This document shows positions 45,145 to 52,891 of a stretch of DNA of 64,000 nucleotides, piece by piece. Below the pieces are notes generated by a model, which ran no database searches, was not told the DNA's origin, and saw nothing but the letters and a program-made list of their open reading frames with translations. Made by a program: the position numbers and the translations under genes. Source of the DNA: Oscillospiraceae bacterium (lineage in GTDB: Bacteria > Bacillota > Clostridia > Oscillospirales > Ruminococcaceae); the NCBI GenBank assembly GCA_017468865.1, contig JAFUHM010000054.1, forward strand, positions 3,252-67,251, written 5' to 3'. Position 1 is the first letter of the stretch. Every line of letters starts with the position of its first letter.

Positions 45145-45441
45145 ATGACCATCAATACAGAAAAGAAGGACGGCACACTCATCGCAGCCATAGAGGGGGA
45201 TCTTGACAGGACCACGTCACCTGAACTGGAGAGCCGCATAACTCCCATGCTTGACAGCGTGACCGAGCTTGTCTTCGACCTTGCAGGGCTCAAGTACATC
45301 TCATCTGCGGGACTTCGTGTCTTCGTGAAGATGCAGAAGCTCATAGGAGGAGGAAAGATGACCCTCAGACACGTTGCTCCTGCCGTAATGGAAATATTCA
45401 GGCTCAGCGGTTTTACCAATTTCCTGAATATAGAGGAGTGA
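45145..45441 (+). CDS. STAS-domain anti-sigma antagonist
   Basis: IEGDLDRTTS, DLAGLKYISSAGLR with phosphoacceptor Ser. Confidence 0.92.
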   Translation: MTINTEKKDGTLIAAIEGDLDRTTSPELESRITPMLDSVTELVFDLAGLKYISSAGLRVFVKMQKLIGGGKMTLRHVAPAVMEIFRLSGFTNFLNIEE

Positions 45442-45449
45442 GGGAGCGG

Positions 45450-47636
45450 ATGAGATCACATACGGACAAGCTGTGTCTGGCGGCGATACTTCTCCTTTCG
45501 GGATGCACATCGCAGAATGTGCCGCTTCCCGATGAGATGACCACCACCACACTTGCAGTATCGGAAACAGCCCCGGAGGAGGTCGTCGAGCAGTCGCTCG
45601 ATGGCCTTGTCATTGAGGACGGCAAACTCATGCCCATACTCAGTATCAGCGATATGCGGGATGAGGCTTACACCAATGAGGGAAGTGATATACTCCGCTT
45701 CTGTGTCTATGTGGAAACAGACCACGACACGGACGGGGACGGCATGAACGACCTTGTCAAGGTGTTCATGCAGGTGCCCCATGCGGCATCAAAGGGGAAG
45801 TTCAAGGCAGGCACCATCTACGACCCCACCCCCTACAATGCTGGCACCGTCGAGGAACTCTACGACTCCGCCGAGCCCATGTACAATGAGAAGGAGTTTG
45901 ACTACGACAAGCTCTACGCATCGGGCGGCACCCGCATTCCCGATAAGGAGATATCCACCCTTGAACTGTCAAAGACCGCCGATCCGAATGACTGGAACTA
46001 TTCCGTTCCCTATTCGGGCGAAACAGGCTACATATACGGCAATATGTATGACTACTATCTTGCAAGGGGATATGCCGTTGCACAGTGTTCGGGCATAGGC
46101 ACCTACGGTTCGGAGGGGTTTGAGCTCTGCGGCATGGATCTCGAAAGAGACAGCCATAAGGCGGTAGTGGAATGGCTTGCGGGCAAGCGCACGGCATTTG
46201 CGGACAAGCAGGGCAAATATGCCGTCCCTGCGGACTTCTCCAACGGCAGGGTGGCAATGACAGGCTGCTCCTACGGCGGCACGCTCCCCTATGAGGTGGC
46301 TACCACAGGTGTTGAGGGGCTTGTCACCATCATCCCCTTTGCAGGCATCGCCAACTGGTATGACTATACCAATTCCCAGGGAGTGTCCACCAGATTTGAT
46401 ACCCACTACACGGATGACCTTGCCTCCTACAATGCAGGCGCCACGTTTGAGGATGACGGCTGGATGGTGCCGGGGGATGAGTACGGCTCCTACCTCTGGC
46501 AGGTGGCACAGGATGAGGAAGCATCCAACGGCAATTACTCCGATATGTGGAGCAGATTTGACTACTCCGACAAGTACGAGGATATAAAATGCTCCGCCCT
46601 CATAGTCCACGGCCTCAATGATTTCAATGTCCTGACCCGACAGGCAGACCTGATGATGCAGGCATTCGACAAGGCAGGCGCCAACGCCAAGCTCGTCCTT
46701 CACCAGGACGGACACAACTTCCTCAACGACATTGAAGTAAACGGTGAGCTTTGGCAGGATACCATGAACAAGTGGCTTGCCCACTACCTTTACGGCGTGG
46801 ACAACGGCATACAGGACATGGCAAAGGTCACTGTCCAGTCGAATGTGGACGGCAGCTTCAAAACATATGACAAGTGGCGTGACTTTGACTACAATGAATA
46901 TGAAGTCCGTTCATCAAGCGCCTACGCAGTCTCCACCCTCGACACCACCAATCTTGCTGAGACCGCATATCAGTATCTGACCGCACAGGGATCGGATATA
47001 GGCGGCATCGACTATCAGCAGACGTACTATATCGACCTTGAAGAGCCTCTCGGAGTGCAGTATGAGGTGGACATCCCCGAAGGCACCACCATCTACGGCG
47101 TGCCCGAGATCCATGTGCAGTTGGCGACCAATACCCTTGACAAGGACGGGATGATGGTCACCGCCACCCTTACCGACGTCACGGAGGACGAGAGCAGATT
47201 CAAGGCATTCATGGGCAAGCAGAGGATAAACTCATGTGTCCCCGTCTCCACCATAGGCACGGCAGAGGCAGGGGGAGGGCTTCCCGATGTGGAGATCAAG
47301 CAATTTGTGCAGTCCAACACATACAGCAAGGTCATCACCTACGGCTGGACAGACCTCTGCAATCCCGGCAAGGGCTATGATGCCAAGGAATACACCGACG
47401 TGGCTGAACTGGAGAACGAGAAATACTATGACTACACCTTCTATATGCAACCCACTGTCTACACCGTGGAGAAGGGGCATAAGCTGGTGCTGACCCTGTC
47501 CGCATGGGATCCATACCGTGCCTTCCTTGACGAGGACTACGAGCTTGATCCCGAGCATTACACGGAATACACTGACCATAAGTACACATTCTTTGTGGAT
47601 AACTATTCCGTGACCGCCAACATCCCTACCGTATGA
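45450..47636 (+). CDS. CocE/NonD (S15, PepX-like) hydrolase, lipoprotein
   Basis: Lipobox LLSGC; DTDGDGMNDLV, GCSYGG nucleophile, VHGLNDFNV, HQDGH, NKWLAHYLYG. Confidence 0.85.
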   Translation: MRSHTDKLCLAAILLLSGCTSQNVPLPDEMTTTTLAVSETAPEEVVEQSLDGLVIEDGKLMPILSISDMRDEAYTNEGSDILRFCVYVETDHDTDGDGMNDLVKVFMQVPHAASKGKFKAGTIYDPTPYNAGTVEELYDSAEPMYNEKEFDYDKLYASGGTRIPDKEISTLELSKTADPNDWNYSVPYSGETGYIYGNMYDYYLARGYAVAQCSGIGTYGSEGFELCGMDLERDSHKAVVEWLAGKRTAFADKQGKYAVPADFSNGRVAMTGCSYGGTLPYEVATTGVEGLVTIIPFAGIANWYDYTNSQGVSTRFDTHYTDDLASYNAGATFEDDGWMVPGDEYGSYLWQVAQDEEASNGNYSDMWSRFDYSDKYEDIKCSALIVHGLNDFNVLTRQADLMMQAFDKAGANAKLVLHQDGHNFLNDIEVNGELWQDTMNKWLAHYLYGVDNGIQDMAKVTVQSNVDGSFKTYDKWRDFDYNEYEVRSSSAYAVSTLDTTNLAETAYQYLTAQGSDIGGIDYQQTYYIDLEEPLGVQYEVDIPEGTTIYGVPEIHVQLATNTLDKDGMMVTATLTDVTEDESRFKAFMGKQRINSCVPVSTIGTAEAGGGLPDVEIKQFVQSNTYSKVITYGWTDLCNPGKGYDAKEYTDVAELENEKYYDYTFYMQPTVYTVEKGHKLVLTLSAWDPYRAFLDEDYELDPEHYTEYTDHKYTFFVDNYSVTANIPTV

Positions 47637-47745
47637 TCTAACGATTTACACAAAACATTACGGACAGACCGAAAGGATTGCGCTAATATAGAAGTTTTCC
47701 AAAAACTAATATGTAAAGACCTATACAGCGGGCTATGAAACAGAA

Positions 47746-47784
47746 CAGGCAGATACTTCAAACGAGTTATCTGCCTGCTTTTTT
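47746..47784 (+). terminator. Rho-independent terminator
   Basis: CAGGCAGATA/TATCTGCCTG stem plus T6. Confidence 0.8.
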
Positions 47785-47831
47785 ATAATAACGCTCGAAC
47801 GCTGAATGATCTGTTTTTTACAGATGACAGC

Positions 47832-47860
47832 TTGCTTTTTCAACTAAATTATGCTACAAT
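47832..47860 (+). promoter_or_regulatory. SigA-like promoter upstream of the remnant
   Basis: TTGCTT-17bp-TACAAT with TGn; GAGGTG RBS at 47889-47894. Confidence 0.55.
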
Positions 47861-47901
47861 ATGTATGTGCTATTCTATAATAATGGCAGAGGTGGCAATG
47901 T

Positions 47902-48073
47902 ATGAGTAAGCTCGGTAATACACTATATAGCATTGCAAGCTTTTCCTCGTAAACGGATCACATTGGAGGAACTCAGCAGATTATGCTCAAATTCGGAACT
48001 ACTTAACGAGCAGATCAACGAGCTTACCAATCAGGGTGTATTAGTGCCTGTCAGGTGCAGCGGAACAGCTTGA
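47902..48073 (+). pseudogene. Frameshifted, truncated 5' end resembling Firmicute Wadjet jetD
   Basis: Restoring 2 bp in TATATA (47924-47929) gives MSKLGNTLYIALQAFPRKRITLEELSRLCSNSELLNEQINELTNQGVLVPVRCSGTA*; similarity recognised from memory only. Confidence 0.5.
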
Positions 48074-48320
48074 ACAGGCGAAGAAAGTGAGTGAGCAAGC
48101 TGTTAAGCAGTATTCAGAAGCATCAACTTGCCATGCAAAAGCAGAAAGCAGACTGGAGCAGGCTAAGGAAAAGCTCGCAGAACTTCATACAGAACTTCTG
48201 CCCCGTTCCGAAGTTGGTTCGGATTTTGAAAGACGTATAAAAGAATGCAATGACAAATTAGCTGCCGCTGAGTCAGAGGACAGCGAATGTTCAAAAAGAT
48301 TGAATGACCTGGAGCCAGCC
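48060..48320 (+). pseudogene. Start-less coiled-coil fragment (SMC/JetC-like?)
   Basis: AEQLEQAKKVSEQAVKQY..LEQAKEKLAEL..RIKECNDKLAAAESE heptad pattern; runs into the murD promoter. Confidence 0.4.
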
Positions 48321-48342
48321 CCGACTTTTTTTCATATATCCA

Positions 48343-48371
48343 TTGCATTTTCCGTCATGATGTGGTATAAT
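48343..48371 (+). promoter_or_regulatory. SigA promoter of murD
   Basis: TTGCAT-17bp-TATAAT with TGn. Confidence 0.75.
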
Positions 48372-48403
48372 AAAAAAGATAGATTAATGAAAGGGTAATA
48401 GCA

Positions 48404-49792
48404 ATGGATAAGATACGTTCCTTCTTTGAGCAGATGAGAGATAAGCGGATAGCCTTTATCGGTGTGGGCGTCAGCCATACCGACCTGATAAAGCTTTTTC
48501 TTTCAAAGGGGCTTGATGTCACGGTCTGCGACAAGAAGACGAAGGATAAGATGAAGGAATATGAGGAACTCTCCGAGGCAGGCGCCAAGTTTGAACTTGG
48601 GGAGGGCTACCTTGACGATATAGCGGAAGGCAGATTTGATGTGGTGTTCCGCACTCCCGGTATGTACTATCTTTCGGATGTGCTGACAAAGGCAAGGGCT
48701 AAGGGCACTGCGGTCACCAGCGAGATGGAGGTCTTCTTCGACCTGTGTCCGTGTCCTGTCTATGCGCTTACAGGTTCAGACGGCAAGACCACCACTACCA
48801 CCATCGTTGCCGAGCTGCTTGCGCATGAGGGAAAGAGAGTGCATAAGGGCGGCAATATAGGACGTGCGCTCCTGCCTGTAATAGAGGATGTGCGCCCCGA
48901 TGATGTCGCTGTGGTGGAGCTTTCCAGCTTCCAGCTCATTTCCATGAGGTCATCGCCCGACTTTGCCGCCATCACCAACATCACTCCCAATCACCTCAAT
49001 GTACATAAGGATATGCAGGAATACATAGATGCAAAGGCGAATATCCTCCTGCATCAGAACGCATTCTCCGTGTCGGTGCTTTCATGGGACAACCTCACCG
49101 CAAGAGAGCTGGCTCCCCTTGCAAGAGGAGATCTGCGCTGGTTCAGCCGCTTTGAAAAGGTGGACAACGGCGCATACCTTGACGGGAATATGCTCGTATA
49201 CAGCGATCACGGCAAGGTTACTCCCGTTCTTGATATGCACGACATACGCATCCCCGGTATGCACAATGTGGAGAATTACCTGACTGCCATTGCCCTTACA
49301 TGGGGCAAAGTTTCGCCGGAAACAGTGCGCACGGTGGCAAAGGAGTTTGCGGGCGTGGAGCACCGCATCGAACTGGTGAGGGAGCTTGACGGGGTGAAGT
49401 ATTACAATAACTCCATCGCATCGAGCCCCACAAGAGTCATCGCCTGCCTGAATACCTTCAATCAGAAGCAGATAATGATAATGGGCGGCTCGGACAAGGG
49501 CATATCCTTTGATCCCATGGCTCACCTTGTCTGCGAAAAGGTAAAGCTCCTCATACTTCTCGGAGAGACCAAATACAAGATAAGGGACGCTGTGATGCGT
49601 GCGGACAACTACAAGGAAGGCGCTCCCGAGATCATCATCACGGACACGATGGATGAAGCGGTGAAGACTGCACATGACAGGGCTGAAAAGGGTGACATAG
49701 TATCCCTTTCCCCTGCCTGCGCAAGCTTTGATATGTACCGTATGTTTGAGGAAAGAGGAGATCATTTCAAGTCCCTCGTAAATGCCCTTTGA
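48404..49792 (+). CDS. murD: UDP-N-acetylmuramoyl-L-alanine--D-glutamate ligase
   Basis: TGSDGKTTTT, GGNIG, ELSSFQL, GVEHRIE, LSPACASFDMY..FEERG. Confidence 0.97.
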   Translation: MDKIRSFFEQMRDKRIAFIGVGVSHTDLIKLFLSKGLDVTVCDKKTKDKMKEYEELSEAGAKFELGEGYLDDIAEGRFDVVFRTPGMYYLSDVLTKARAKGTAVTSEMEVFFDLCPCPVYALTGSDGKTTTTTIVAELLAHEGKRVHKGGNIGRALLPVIEDVRPDDVAVVELSSFQLISMRSSPDFAAITNITPNHLNVHKDMQEYIDAKANILLHQNAFSVSVLSWDNLTARELAPLARGDLRWFSRFEKVDNGAYLDGNMLVYSDHGKVTPVLDMHDIRIPGMHNVENYLTAIALTWGKVSPETVRTVAKEFAGVEHRIELVRELDGVKYYNNSIASSPTRVIACLNTFNQKQIMIMGGSDKGISFDPMAHLVCEKVKLLILLGETKYKIRDAVMRADNYKEGAPEIIITDTMDEAVKTAHDRAEKGDIVSLSPACASFDMYRMFEERGDHFKSLVNAL

Positions 49793-50842: not shown

Positions 50843-52104
50843 TGTCATCTGAAACAAAAACACTGTTTATGGAGATACTTCATGACCTGTGCGAGATAAA
50901 CGGCACATCGGGACGTGAGGAAAAAGTCCGTGAGTATATCCTTGACAGGATAGGGGACAAAGCCAGCTGTACGGTAAATCCGCTGGGATGTGTCATTGCG
51001 GAGTATAAGGCAAAGCCCGCGGACAGGAAGCTTATGATCTCCGCCCATATGGACGAGGTAGGCTTTATCATCACATATATAAACGACGACGGCACACTTT
51101 CCTTCGACTGCGTAGGCGGAGTTTCGCCGGATGCCTGTGCAGGACGACAGGTCACGGTGGACGGAAATCCTTCCGTAAGGGATACGGATAAGTGCTGCCC
51201 CGTGGGCACGTCCGATAAGGCACTCGATGTTGAGAGTGACCGTGCCGCAGATAGATATGTCAGCAGTAATGTATCAACGAAATCGCTCCGCCCCGTGGGC
51301 AATGACGAAAAGGCTCAAAACGGTGAGAGTGACCGTGCCGCAGATAGATATGTCAGCAGTAATGTATCAGCGAAACCGCTCCGCCCCGTGGGCGGCGGGA
51401 TAGGGACGAGGCCGATACATAACCTGAGCGCAGATGAGAGGAAGACTCCCGTCAGGTTCAGGGATCTGTATATAGATATAGGGGCTAAGGACAGAGAGGA
51501 AGCCGAAAGGTATGTGTCCATAGGGGACAGTGCCTATTTCCTCACGGGATGGAACGTGTCAAGGGACGGATATATCCGCTCCAAGGCGATAGATGACCGA
51601 ATAGGTTGTGCCGTTATGCTCACGATGATCATAATGGGGCTTCCCGAATATGACACAACATTCACCTTTGTCACCCAGGAGGAAGTGGGGCTGCGAGGTT
51701 CCCGAACAGCCGCATTTACGGTGCAGCCCGATATGGCGATAGTAATTGAAGCTACGACGGCGGCGGATATCCCCCTTTCGGAAGGGGCGCAGAGATGCTG
51801 TGAACTCGGAAAGGGTGCGGTAGTGTCCTACATGGACAGATCCACGCTGTATGACAGGCAGATGTACGATCTCTCCCGCCGGATAGCCGCTGAAAAGGGC
51901 ATAGGCTGGCAGACAAAGACCGTCGTTGCAGGCGGAAATGACAGCGGAGCGATACATATTTCGGGCAAGGGTGTCCGCACTATGGCGATATCGGTGCCCT
52001 GCCGCTATCTGCACACTCCCTCCTCGGTGGCATACGGGAAGGATATGTTTGACGTATTTGATCTGGTATGTGAAATGGAGCGTGCGCTGCGTGAAGAGAT
52101 CTGA
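50836..52104 (+). CDS. M42 family aminopeptidase with an in-frame insertion of about 75 aa
   Basis: AHMDEVG, KAIDDRIG, QEEVGLRG, GGNDSG, RYLHTP. Confidence 0.92.
   Translation: MLMSSETKTLFMEILHDLCEINGTSGREEKVREYILDRIGDKASCTVNPLGCVIAEYKAKPADRKLMISAHMDEVGFIITYINDDGTLSFDCVGGVSPDACAGRQVTVDGNPSVRDTDKCCPVGTSDKALDVESDRAADRYVSSNVSTKSLRPVGNDEKAQNGESDRAADRYVSSNVSAKPLRPVGGGIGTRPIHNLSADERKTPVRFRDLYIDIGAKDREEAERYVSIGDSAYFLTGWNVSRDGYIRSKAIDDRIGCAVMLTMIIMGLPEYDTTFTFVTQEEVGLRGSRTAAFTVQPDMAIVIEATTAADIPLSEGAQRCCELGKGAVVSYMDRSTLYDRQMYDLSRRIAAEKGIGWQTKTVVAGGNDSGAIHISGKGVRTMAISVPCRYLHTPSSVAYGKDMFDVFDLVCEMERALREEI
51197..51393 (+). repeat. 93-bp-period tandem repeat inside the M42 gene
   Basis: GCCCCGTGGGC at 51197, 51290, 51383; two 70-bp blocks with 2 mismatches, each preceded by a divergent 23-bp segment. 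Confidence 0.92.
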
Positions 52105-52780
52105 AAAGATCGCAAGACATATCCCCGATATCAGACCACAAAGCTACCATTCAGCCAAGATACGAGCCTATGCTGCGGCATACGGACATCGCTACCCTAA
52201 TGTGGCGTGCAGTATATACAGCGGATGCGGCATCTGCGCACTTATCTACAATTCGGATATGGTCATCTGCGGCAGACCTCATGATGAGGAAACGTTTCGC
52301 AGCTTTGCCGATACATTCGGCGAAGGCAAGACCATAGAGAGCGGCACTCTCCTTCCACTTGACGGATGGACTCGCACGGATACGTCCCATATGAGAGGGC
52401 GTGTGACGGGCGATGACGACGGGGTGCGGCCTGCGGACATATACCGTATGTCCGCATATATAGAGACTGTTTTCGGAGTGCCCCGTGATATGTGGTATAC
52501 GGATATGTCCCACAGAGTACGGCACAGGATATCCCGTGTGTACGAATGCGGCGGCTCCTATGCGGCAGTGGACTTTCAGAGCTTCGGGACGGCATATGTA
52601 TCGGCGGTGATGTCGCCGGGAGAGAGCGGCGGCAGGGGGAATATACGGCGCATCCTTTCACGGATATCCCGAAACTACATAATTGATCTGAGGTGCGGCA
52701 GTGAGCTTGTCGGCCTCTATGAACATCTTGGACTCAGACGGAGCGGTACACATTTTATGTATCATGACCGCAAGCTGTGA
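52091..52780 (+). CDS. Hypothetical protein, possibly GNAT-like C-terminus
   Basis: Long ORF filling the gap; SAVMSPGESGGRGN..LVGLYEHLG weakly GNAT-like; start uncertain. Confidence 0.5.
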   Translation: MKRSEKIARHIPDIRPQSYHSAKIRAYAAAYGHRYPNVACSIYSGCGICALIYNSDMVICGRPHDEETFRSFADTFGEGKTIESGTLLPLDGWTRTDTSHMRGRVTGDDDGVRPADIYRMSAYIETVFGVPRDMWYTDMSHRVRHRISRVYECGGSYAAVDFQSFGTAYVSAVMSPGESGGRGNIRRILSRISRNYIIDLRCGSELVGLYEHLGLRRSGTHFMYHDRKL

Positions 52781-52891
52781 GCCTGCGGATCAAAGCCTGC
52801 CGGGAGCAGGCTTTGAATACGGATCATCCCGTGACCGCTGACGGTATGGGATGAAATACAACGATCGTGTGATCTTGGGCGGAGGTAAGAT

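What the first reader, a model, noticed from the sequence alone, without database searches (positions are those of the whole stretch)
47637..48342. Collapsed defence-island scar: jetD-like 5' end spliced to a coiled-coil fragment
Seen: an AT-rich ~700-bp patch with terminator, intact promoter and RBS, and an ORF broken by a 2-bp loss in TATATA. It switches frame near 48060-48067 (shared GCGGAACA, reading S-G-T in one frame and A-E-Q in the other) into ~85 codons of start-less coiled coil. From memory, KRITLEEL...INEL...GVLVPV..SGT resembles the N-terminus of Firmicute Wadjet JetD, encoded first in jetD-A-B-C loci whose last gene is SMC-like. Inference: a microhomology-mediated deletion removed most of an anti-plasmid Wadjet operon, marking pepX-murD as an accessory hotspot. 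The ORF track misses the first fragment.
Basis: partly seen in the sequence, partly recalled or inferred. Interest (0 to 1): 0.62.

Follow-up and report, generated by a model that had tools for sequence, protein, structure and literature searches.

The report
Deletion scar of Wadjet defence operon
The AT-rich patch between a peptidase gene and murD in this rumen Ruminococcus is the dead 641-bp leftover of a 7.75-kb type III Wadjet anti-plasmid operon, reduced by three deletions; this is ordinary decay of a defence gene.

Summary
Window 47674-48314 is what remains of a type III Wadjet cassette (jetD-A-B-C).

- **What survives:** the conserved left end with a terminator, the jetD promoter and RBS, jetD codons 1-56 and jetC codons ~997-1081.
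- **Three lesions:** a 2-bp loss at 47929/47930; a ~6.0-kb deletion joining jetD to jetC inside TGCAGCGGAACA (48056-48067); and a 3' deletion from jetC codon ~1082 that probably ends in the terminator upstream of the murD promoter.
- **Homology:** about fifteen related loci, ten of them with the whole operon, carry the two pieces about 6 kb apart. The jetD piece is 73% identical to a relative's JetD (E 7e-26). The jetC piece is 62% identical to a relative's JetC (E 6e-29).
- **Loss is complete:** the genome has no other jetA, jetB, jetC or JetD Toprim domain.

- The coiled coil is an internal jetC piece, so one deletion is not enough.
- Intact homologues share GGAACA plus GCAG (10 of 11 bases) at both breakpoints, not the exact 8-mer.
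- Nothing supports a pepX-murD hotspot or a defence island here.

This is an ordinary pseudogene relic of low interest.

The parts
45438..47636 (+). Left core flank: S15/PepX-type peptidase gene (732 aa)
   Evidence: Pfam Peptidase_S15 E 3.7e-40 and PepX_C. GC 0.543.
47674..47785 (+). Retained left end of the Wadjet cassette: a conserved ~100-nt module ending in an intrinsic terminator (hairpin 47746-47777, then a T-run)
   Evidence: Homology with the region upstream of jetD in related loci starts at 47683 in six of them and at 47670 in L023. Fold dG -18.2 kcal/mol, z -5.9. The hairpin is conserved in 12 copies. Solo copies also exist elsewhere.
47832..47860 (+). jetD promoter: -35 TTGCTT, 17-nt spacer, TG-extended -10 TACAAT
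   Evidence: Read from the sequence. The block CTTGCTTTTTCRACYAAATTATGCTACAAT is conserved in 13 of 15 aligned related loci. Function was not tested.
47888..47895 (+). jetD ribosome-binding site AGAGGTGG, 6 nt before the ATG at 47902
   Evidence: AGAGGTGGCAATGTATG is conserved in nearly all aligned cassettes.
47902..48067 (+). jetD pseudogene: codons 1-56 only, frameshifted by a 2-bp deletion at 47929/47930
   Evidence: 73% identity over 56 aa to G003 JetD, E 7e-26. PADLOC JetD3 E 1.8e-5. The 2-bp gap is seen against both intact relatives aligned. Only one of 23 invariant columns is changed, K52R.
48056..48067 (+). Junction 1: microhomology TGCAGCGGAACA where jetD codon 56 meets jetC codon ~997; about 6.0 kb is missing
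   Evidence: blastn matches to jetD end at 48067 in most loci. Five of the six strongest jetC matches begin at 48049-48056 and L010 at 48057. Intact homologues read AGCAG[C/T]GGAACA at the jetD site and TGCAGAGGAACA at the jetC site.
48057..48314 (+). jetC pseudogene fragment: internal coiled-coil arm, without start codon or ATPase heads
   Evidence: 62% identity over 85 aa to G016 JetC residues 997-1081, E 6e-29. 76-81% identity to Ruminococcus JetC in genome contigs. DNA homology ends at 48307-48314.
48315..48332 (+). Junction 2 and an orphan 3' half of a terminator (CCAGCCCCGAC followed by T7); the 5' arm is missing
   Evidence: No hairpin is left: dG -2.1 kcal/mol, z +0.95. In congeners a complete terminator sits at this position before the murD promoter. 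That the deletion ended inside it is an inference.
48343..48371 (+). Core murD promoter: -35 TTGCAT, 17-nt spacer, TG-extended -10 TATAAT
   Evidence: Alignable with the murD upstream region of G023 and four other congeners. It is not part of the Wadjet cassette.
48404..49792 (+). Right core flank: murD (462 aa)
   Evidence: Pfam Mur_ligase_M and Mur_ligase_C. 72-86% aa identity to congener MurD.

Best explanation
An ancestor of this rumen Ruminococcus acquired a ~7.75-kb AT-rich type III Wadjet cassette. The cassette comprised a terminator module, the jetD promoter and jetD-jetA-jetB-jetC. It lay between the pepX-like gene and the terminator and promoter upstream of murD. The system was later destroyed by three lesions, whose order is unknown.

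1. A ~6.0-kb deletion between two imperfect 11-nt direct repeats: GCAGCGGAACA in jetD codons 53-56 and GCAGnGGAACA in jetC codons ~995-998. This is typical of replication slippage or RecA-independent illegitimate recombination. It removed the JetD Toprim nuclease domain, jetA, jetB and two thirds of jetC.
2. A 3' deletion from jetC codon ~1082 through the rest of the cassette, which probably ended inside the terminator hairpin upstream of the murD promoter.
3. A 2-bp slippage loss in a TATATA run in jetD codon 10.

What is left (47674-48314, 641 bp) cannot encode any Wadjet activity and is an inert relic.

Shown here: the homology, the positions and sizes of the lesions, and the absence of all other Wadjet parts. 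Inferred: the slippage mechanism, the end point of deletion 2 in a terminator, the horizontal origin, and any benefit from the loss, such as tolerance of plasmids.
For: - Identity of the pieces.
- Intact jetD-A-B-C cassettes: PADLOC hits JetD3 8.5e-71, JetA3 1.5e-114, JetB3 5.6e-50 and JetC3 1.2e-133 in G016. The same order is seen in R. flavefaciens YAD2003, RUG213, UBA3665 and other loci.
- The two pieces lie 6012-6018 bp apart in L024, L023 and L010 (computed).
- Shared repeat at both breakpoints.
- 2-bp gap.
- jetC homology stops at 48314, and no terminator fold is left after it. Congeners have a complete terminator there.
- Scar GC 0.413 matches intact cassettes (0.39-0.44) and not the flanks (0.52-0.54).
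- The own genome, 97.8% complete, has no other JetA, JetB, JetC or JetD by tblastn and no JetD_C domain. Seven of 25 genomes of the genus have JetD_C, a patchy accessory distribution.
- Same sequence in three assemblies.
- Precedent: spontaneous loss of a Wadjet operon, and a deletion of a cas locus flanked by a 5-bp direct repeat, in Clostridium cellulovorans. There, targeted jetABCD deletion had what the authors call a huge effect on plasmid uptake by conjugation (PMC12287153).
Against: - No intact cassette was found at the pepX-murD site, and no empty site either. The nearest PepX homologue in the 5.8-billion-protein collection is only 64% identical. The ancestral arrangement and the exact ancestral repeat sequences are therefore inferred from cassettes at other loci in other species.
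- The extent and right end of deletion 2 cannot be measured.
- The remaining frames are little degraded: only one change in 23 invariant JetD columns. This fits recent decay but does not exclude some retained role.
Confidence: 0.9

Rival explanations
1. Exapted regulatory relic. The orphan jetD promoter, still intact, now transcribes through the scar into murD, because deletion 2 destroyed the only terminator in between. On this view the scar is kept because it contributes to murD expression.
For: The promoter and RBS are intact and match the conserved cassette consensus. No hairpin terminator lies between 47860 and 48404. The remaining frames are little degraded.
Against: murD has its own strong-looking promoter, homologous to that of congeners. 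Low degradation is equally expected from a recent deletion. There are no transcript data. The three available copies are one strain lineage, so they say nothing about conservation.
Confidence: 0.07
2. The fragment arrived already truncated. A decayed cassette remnant was transferred or recombined into this site, and no complete operon ever decayed here.
For: The conserved ~100-nt left-end module also occurs as solo copies elsewhere in this and related genomes. It could therefore serve as a patch of homology for recombination. No occupied site was found.
Against: The right junction runs into what looks like the core murD-upstream terminator. That is most simply explained by a deletion in place. 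No other copy of this jetD-jetC fusion was found in 41 related genomes or in the collections searched.
Confidence: 0.05
3. The frames still encode something: the 16-aa peptide from the jetD start, or the 103-aa GTG-started coiled-coil ORF (48087-48398).
For: The jetD RBS and ATG are intact. The ORF 48087-48398 is open.
Against: There is no recognisable RBS before the GTG at 48087. The tail of that ORF is simply the murD promoter and leader read in frame. No homologue of such a short protein was seen: all matches are to full-length JetC or JetD.
Confidence: 0.02
4. Assembly artefact: a collapsed or chimeric join made by the assembler.
For: The genome is a fragmented assembly of 95 contigs.
Against: Two independent metagenome assemblies from other samples give the identical 767 bp on 60-kb contigs. 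An 11-nt imperfect repeat is too short to collapse an assembly graph.
Confidence: 0.01

Closest known systems
Type III Wadjet (JetD3-JetA3-JetB3-JetC3; PADLOC models PDLC00592/00562/00576/00583; Wadjet types I-III distinguished by operon organisation, bioRxiv 10.1101/2025.03.10.642339)
   Same: The two coding fragments are homologous to JetD3 (N-terminus) and JetC3 (coiled-coil arm). The promoter, RBS and upstream module match those of intact jetD-A-B-C cassettes of rumen and gut Ruminococcus and Oscillospiraceae.
   Different: Only about 8% of the cassette remains. It has no Toprim nuclease domain, no JetA kleisin, no JetB and no JetC ATPase heads or hinge, and it carries a frameshift. It is a relic, not a working member.
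Spontaneous loss of defence loci in Clostridium cellulovorans (PMC12287153)
   Same: A Wadjet operon was lost by spontaneous chromosomal deletion in a Clostridia-class Firmicute. In the same strain a cas-locus deletion was flanked by a short (5-bp) direct repeat. Targeted removal of Wadjet greatly raised plasmid uptake by conjugation.
   Different: That was a 23-kb laboratory deletion removing the whole operon with its neighbours. Here a natural population carries an internal 6-kb repeat-mediated deletion plus two further lesions, and fragments are left behind.
Wadjet deletion scars noted earlier in this scan in other genomes (e1-1249695, e1-4012312, e1-114774, e1-4661470, e1-2830245)
   Same: These are jetC and jetD remnants left by one or two deletions, and each was read as ordinary decay.
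   Different: They are in other lineages, and the three whose Wadjet type the notes state are types I, II and III. I did not check those notes.

Membership tests
Type III Wadjet (functional system) | JetD with a C-terminal Toprim nuclease domain (Pfam JetD_C PF09983) | tested here: not met
   Only JetD codons 1-56 remain. There is no JetD_C match anywhere in the genome. The intact relative G003 JetD has it at residues 212-332.
Type III Wadjet (functional system) | JetA (kleisin-like) and JetB (KITE-like) genes | tested here: not met
   tblastn of G016 JetA and JetB against the whole genome gives no hit at E <= 0.01.
Type III Wadjet (functional system) | Full-length SMC-like JetC with N- and C-terminal ATPase head halves and a hinge | tested here: not met
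   Only a stretch aligning to JetC residues ~997-1081 of 1444 remains, all of it coiled-coil arm.
Relic derived from a type III Wadjet cassette | Specific sequence homology of both fragments to JetD3 and JetC3, not merely coiled-coil resemblance | tested here: met
   E 7e-26 and 6e-29 in pairwise comparison. 62-81% aa identity to nine genome loci. DNA identity 72-88%.
Relic derived from a type III Wadjet cassette | In intact relatives the fragments are collinear, in the same orientation and separated by the missing genes (order jetD-A-B-C) | tested here: met
   Every related locus long enough to show it has the order D-A-B-C. The two sites are 6012-6018 bp apart.
Microhomology (short direct repeat) mediated deletion | The same short sequence at both breakpoints in the undeleted form, with one copy left at the junction | tested here: met
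jetD site AGCAG[C/T]GGAACA, jetC site TGCAGAGGAACA in the closest homologues, junction TGCAGCGGAACA. The exact shared run is 6 nt, or 10 of 11 with GCAG. The direct ancestor is not available.
Accessory or defence hotspot at pepX-murD | Different accessory or defence cargo at the same core junction in related genomes | tested here: not met
   None of the 15 related Wadjet loci has pepX or murD in the sequence held, up to 10 kb each side. No PepX lies within 0.8-8 kb upstream of murD in 11 congeners. The nine upstream neighbours scanned are LCP, MurG, a phosphoribosyltransferase, YgjP-like, DUF218, a MatE-type flippase and two CPBP proteases, plus one protein with no Pfam match. Gene order there is simply not conserved.

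The most novel reading that the evidence does not exclude
The relic is not fully inert. Its intact jetD promoter may now read through the destroyed terminator into murD, so that a promoter from a defence cassette is captured by a cell-wall gene. Separately, the conserved ~100-nt terminator module forms the left end of many of these Wadjet cassettes and also occurs as solo copies after unrelated genes. It could be a portable boundary or landing pad by which recombinase-less defence cassettes move among rumen Ruminococcus.
Probability: 0.08. Interest if true: 0.45.

Novelty: new member of a known kind. Interest (0 to 1): 0.2.

Why it matters
The practical value is in annotation. The locus should be labelled as jetD and jetC pseudogene fragments, and the genome should be scored as Wadjet-negative.

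It is also a clean natural example of three points:
- A four-gene SMC-type anti-plasmid system can be lost by slippage between an 11-nt repeat lying in two of its own genes.
- Such losses leave promoters and terminators behind, next to essential genes.
- The type III jetD-A-B-C cassette circulates among rumen and gut Ruminococcus and Oscillospiraceae as a well-conserved ~7.75-kb unit with a conserved non-coding left end.

None of this changes what is known about Wadjet or about genome decay.

Tried and rejected
- **Rfam:** no family matches 47500-48500 at E <= 1. The ~100-nt left-end module shows only its terminator hairpin as a consensus structure, with almost no covariation. I therefore do not call it a structured RNA.
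- **PDB:** sequence search with the intact relative's JetD gave no hit, so the fold of the 56-aa piece is not assigned.
- **Occupied or empty site:** an exact-protein look-up of PepX found nothing. The MurD look-up found only the same strain lineage. A homology search with PepX gave a next-best hit of 64% identity. The closest species, G023, has a CPBP protease gene before murD, and its pepX fragments lie on other contigs.
- **Solo copies as empty Wadjet sites:** rejected. Solo-copy loci and cassette loci share no flanking genes.
- **Hotspot idea:** rejected.
- **Coiled-coil hits:** the Pfam, NCBIfam and PADLOC matches of the third frame (LmuB, SMC, Rad50 and others) are unspecific and were not used.
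- **Plasmid contigs:** no contig of the assembly has matching ends, so plasmid carriage could not be linked to the loss.

Full report
**1. What is in the sequence**

The spacer between a 732-aa S15/PepX-type peptidase gene (45438-47636) and murD (48404-49792) is 767 bp long. It is AT-rich, with GC 0.37-0.45 against 0.51-0.58 around it.

It holds the following, in order:
- a strong terminator hairpin (47746-47777 plus a T-run; dG -18.2 kcal/mol, z -5.9);
- a promoter-like TTGCTT-17-TACAAT with an upstream TG (47832-47860);
- an RBS, AGAGGTGG (47888-47895);
- an ATG at 47902.

Translation gives three consecutive frames:
- MSKLGNTLYSIASFSS*;
- one base on, ..IALQAFPRKRITLEELSRLCSNSELLNEQINELTNQGVLVPVRCSGTA*, with its stop at 48071-73;
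- one base further on, AAEQLEQAKKVSEQ...RLNDLEPAPTFF..., which runs on through the murD promoter to 48398.

The same 767 bp are identical in two ENA metagenome contigs from other samples. Those contigs are 99.8-99.94% identical to the window overall. They confirm the sequence but represent the same strain lineage.

**2. Identity of the fragments**

The second frame matches PADLOC model JetD3 (PDLC00592) at E 1.8e-5, over profile positions 7-55 of 346. The third frame gives only unspecific coiled-coil hits in the family libraries.

A DNA search of 40 related genomes was decisive. In G016 one contig matches window 47883-48067 and, about 6 kb further on, window 48057-48249. G003 matches 47815-48067 at 82%.

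The G016 locus is a complete type III Wadjet operon in the order jetD-jetA-jetB-jetC, directly after a type I restriction-modification system. Its PADLOC hits are:

| Gene | Model | E-value |
|---|---|---|
| jetD | JetD3 | 8.5e-71 |
| jetA | JetA3 | 1.5e-114 |
| jetB | JetB3 | 5.6e-50 |
| jetC | JetC3 | 1.2e-133 |

The rejoined first and second frames are 73% identical to G003 JetD residues 1-56 (E 7e-26). The third frame is 62% identical to G016 JetC residues 997-1081 of 1444 (E 6e-29).

Scans of genome and metagenome collections found 15 more loci. They include Ruminococcus flavefaciens YAD2003, RUG213, Ruminococcus spp. UBA3855 and UBA3665, and sheep, horse and rabbit gut MAGs. The JetC piece is up to 81% identical to them and the JetD piece up to 77%. 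Wherever the genes are visible they stand in the order D-A-B-C. The organism is therefore a rumen-type Ruminococcus.

**3. The lesions**

*(a) The 2-bp loss.* Against G003 and G016 the window lacks two bases in ACACTATAT[AA]AGCATTGCA, at 47929/47930. This explains the first frame change.

*(b) The ~6.0-kb internal deletion.* blastn matches to jetD end at 48067 in most loci. Matches to jetC begin at 48049-48056 in five of the six strongest jetC matches and at 48057 in L010.
- In intact homologues the jetD site reads AAG AGC AG[C/T] GGA ACA | AAY GG.
- The jetC site of the two closest (L022, L024) reads CA TGC AGA GGA ACA GCT TG.
- The window reads GG TGC AGC GGA ACA GCT TG.

The two sites thus share GCAG and GGAACA with one mismatch between them, 10 of 11 bases, and one copy is left at the junction. 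The distance between the sites is 6012-6018 bp in L024, L023 and L010. This is the signature of a deletion between short direct repeats. It is not present at the jetC site of any.

*(c) The 3' deletion.* jetC homology ends at 48314. Relatives continue ..DRKYTAKYAE.., with some 360 more codons and a terminator, CAGGGCATTGCC...GGCAATGCCCTGTTTT. The window continues CCAGCCCCGAC-TTTTTTT-CATATATCCA and then the murD promoter (TTGCAT 48343-48, TATAAT 48366-71).
- In G023 and four other congeners a complete terminator hairpin with its T-run sits in just this position before a homologous promoter.
- In the window the stretch no longer folds (dG -2.1 kcal/mol, z +0.95).
- I infer that this deletion ended inside that core terminator. 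Its full length is unknown.

**4. Extent and origin of the cassette**

Homology with related loci begins at window 47683 (47670 in L023). It covers a ~100-nt module with the terminator, then the promoter and the leader. Upstream of that point all loci differ.

Intact cassettes are about 7.6-7.8 kb with GC 0.39-0.44. The scar, 47674-48314, is 641 bp with GC 0.413, between flanks of 0.52-0.54. This fits a horizontally acquired cassette of which about 8% is left.

The genome is 97.8% complete. It has no other JetA, JetB, JetC or JetD and no JetD_C Toprim domain. Seven of 25 genomes of the genus have that domain.

**5. What is not supported**

- None of the 15 related Wadjet loci has pepX, murD or other window neighbours in the sequence held, up to 10 kb each side.
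- No congener has PepX within 0.8-8 kb upstream of murD.
- The nine upstream neighbours scanned are ordinary genes, plus one protein with no Pfam match. The ordinary genes are LCP, MurG, a phosphoribosyltransferase, YgjP-like, DUF218, a MatE-type flippase and two CPBP proteases.
- The window's own neighbours are also ordinary: a SpoIIE phosphatase, a STAS protein, PepX, MurD and M42 peptidases.

There is therefore no sign of a defence island or a hotspot, only poorly conserved gene order. No conspecific occupied or empty site could be found.

**6. Mechanism and standing**

The remnant cannot work as Wadjet. The nuclease domain, the kleisin, the KITE subunit and the SMC heads and hinge are all gone.

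The best explanation is decay in place by two slippage-type deletions plus one larger 3' deletion (confidence 0.9).

Loss of Wadjet is known to open a Clostridia-class Firmicute to plasmids. Spontaneous deletions of defence loci, one of them flanked by a short direct repeat, are described in C. cellulovorans (PMC12287153). Earlier notes of this scan list several comparable Wadjet scars in other genomes (not checked by me).

A minor open possibility is that the intact orphan promoter now reads into murD.

**7. Verdict**

- a second large deletion is needed;
- the microhomology is 6 exact bases, or 10 of 11, and not an exact 8-mer;
- there is no evidence for a hotspot or a defence island.

This is an ordinary pseudogene relic of a known system. 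Interest is low.

Noticed in passing
window 47674-47785; G000:C70:1883-1982 (L019, minus strand); G019:C208:9094-9192; G003:C80:12167-12276 and 47027-47097; G016:C40:9880-9932: A conserved ~100-nt module (..GGTCGGTACTAATATAGAAGTTTT..AAGACCTATACAGCGGGCTATGAAACAGAACAGGCAGATAC..GTATCTGCCTGTTTTT) forms the left end of many type III Wadjet cassettes. It also occurs as solo copies; in this genome one lies 30 bp after recG, acting as its terminator before a convergent ABC-ATPase gene. It has no Rfam match and no covariation beyond the terminator. Its nature is unknown: a portable terminator, a recombination patch or a small RNA.
   Followed up: partly
window 48321-48372; about 20 other places in the genome (for example C3:256-308, C74:8735-8794, C22:11681-11734): The murD promoter region (TTGCAT-17-TGTGGTATAAT with an A-rich tail) recurs at ~80% identity at many sites in this genome and in congeners. 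It most likely reflects a stereotyped strong housekeeping promoter rather than a repeat element.
   Followed up: partly
L031:7936-8320 (minus strand); fragments in L024, L027 and L029 just after jetC: A small convergent ORF ends 47-48 bp after the jetC stop (..AKAYFLELMMSMDGEEHERAECVYIQLLHGLEECSDEDE*). It is conserved or fragmentary next to several cassettes at different loci. It may be a fifth, unannotated companion gene or a common neighbour.
   Followed up: no
L031:5736-5739 (metagenome contig OCHE01002808.1): jetC of this otherwise complete cassette matches G016 JetC in two pieces that lie in different frames (residues 3-728 and 730-1444). This is an apparent frameshift, either another decaying Wadjet or a sequencing error.
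   Followed up: no
L010:304-6167 (G016:C2): The intact G016 Wadjet cassette lies directly after a type I restriction-modification operon whose specificity gene is split into two ORFs of 216 and 149 aa. That locus, unlike the window, is a true defence island.
   Followed up: no
window 51197-51393 and 52754-52814: There is a diverged ~93-bp-offset internal repeat in the M42 peptidase gene (87.5% self-match). There is also a length difference between the window (59 bp) and metagenome contig L012 (100 bp) at 52754-52814. The repeat was already noted by another reader (e1-5258313).
   Followed up: no
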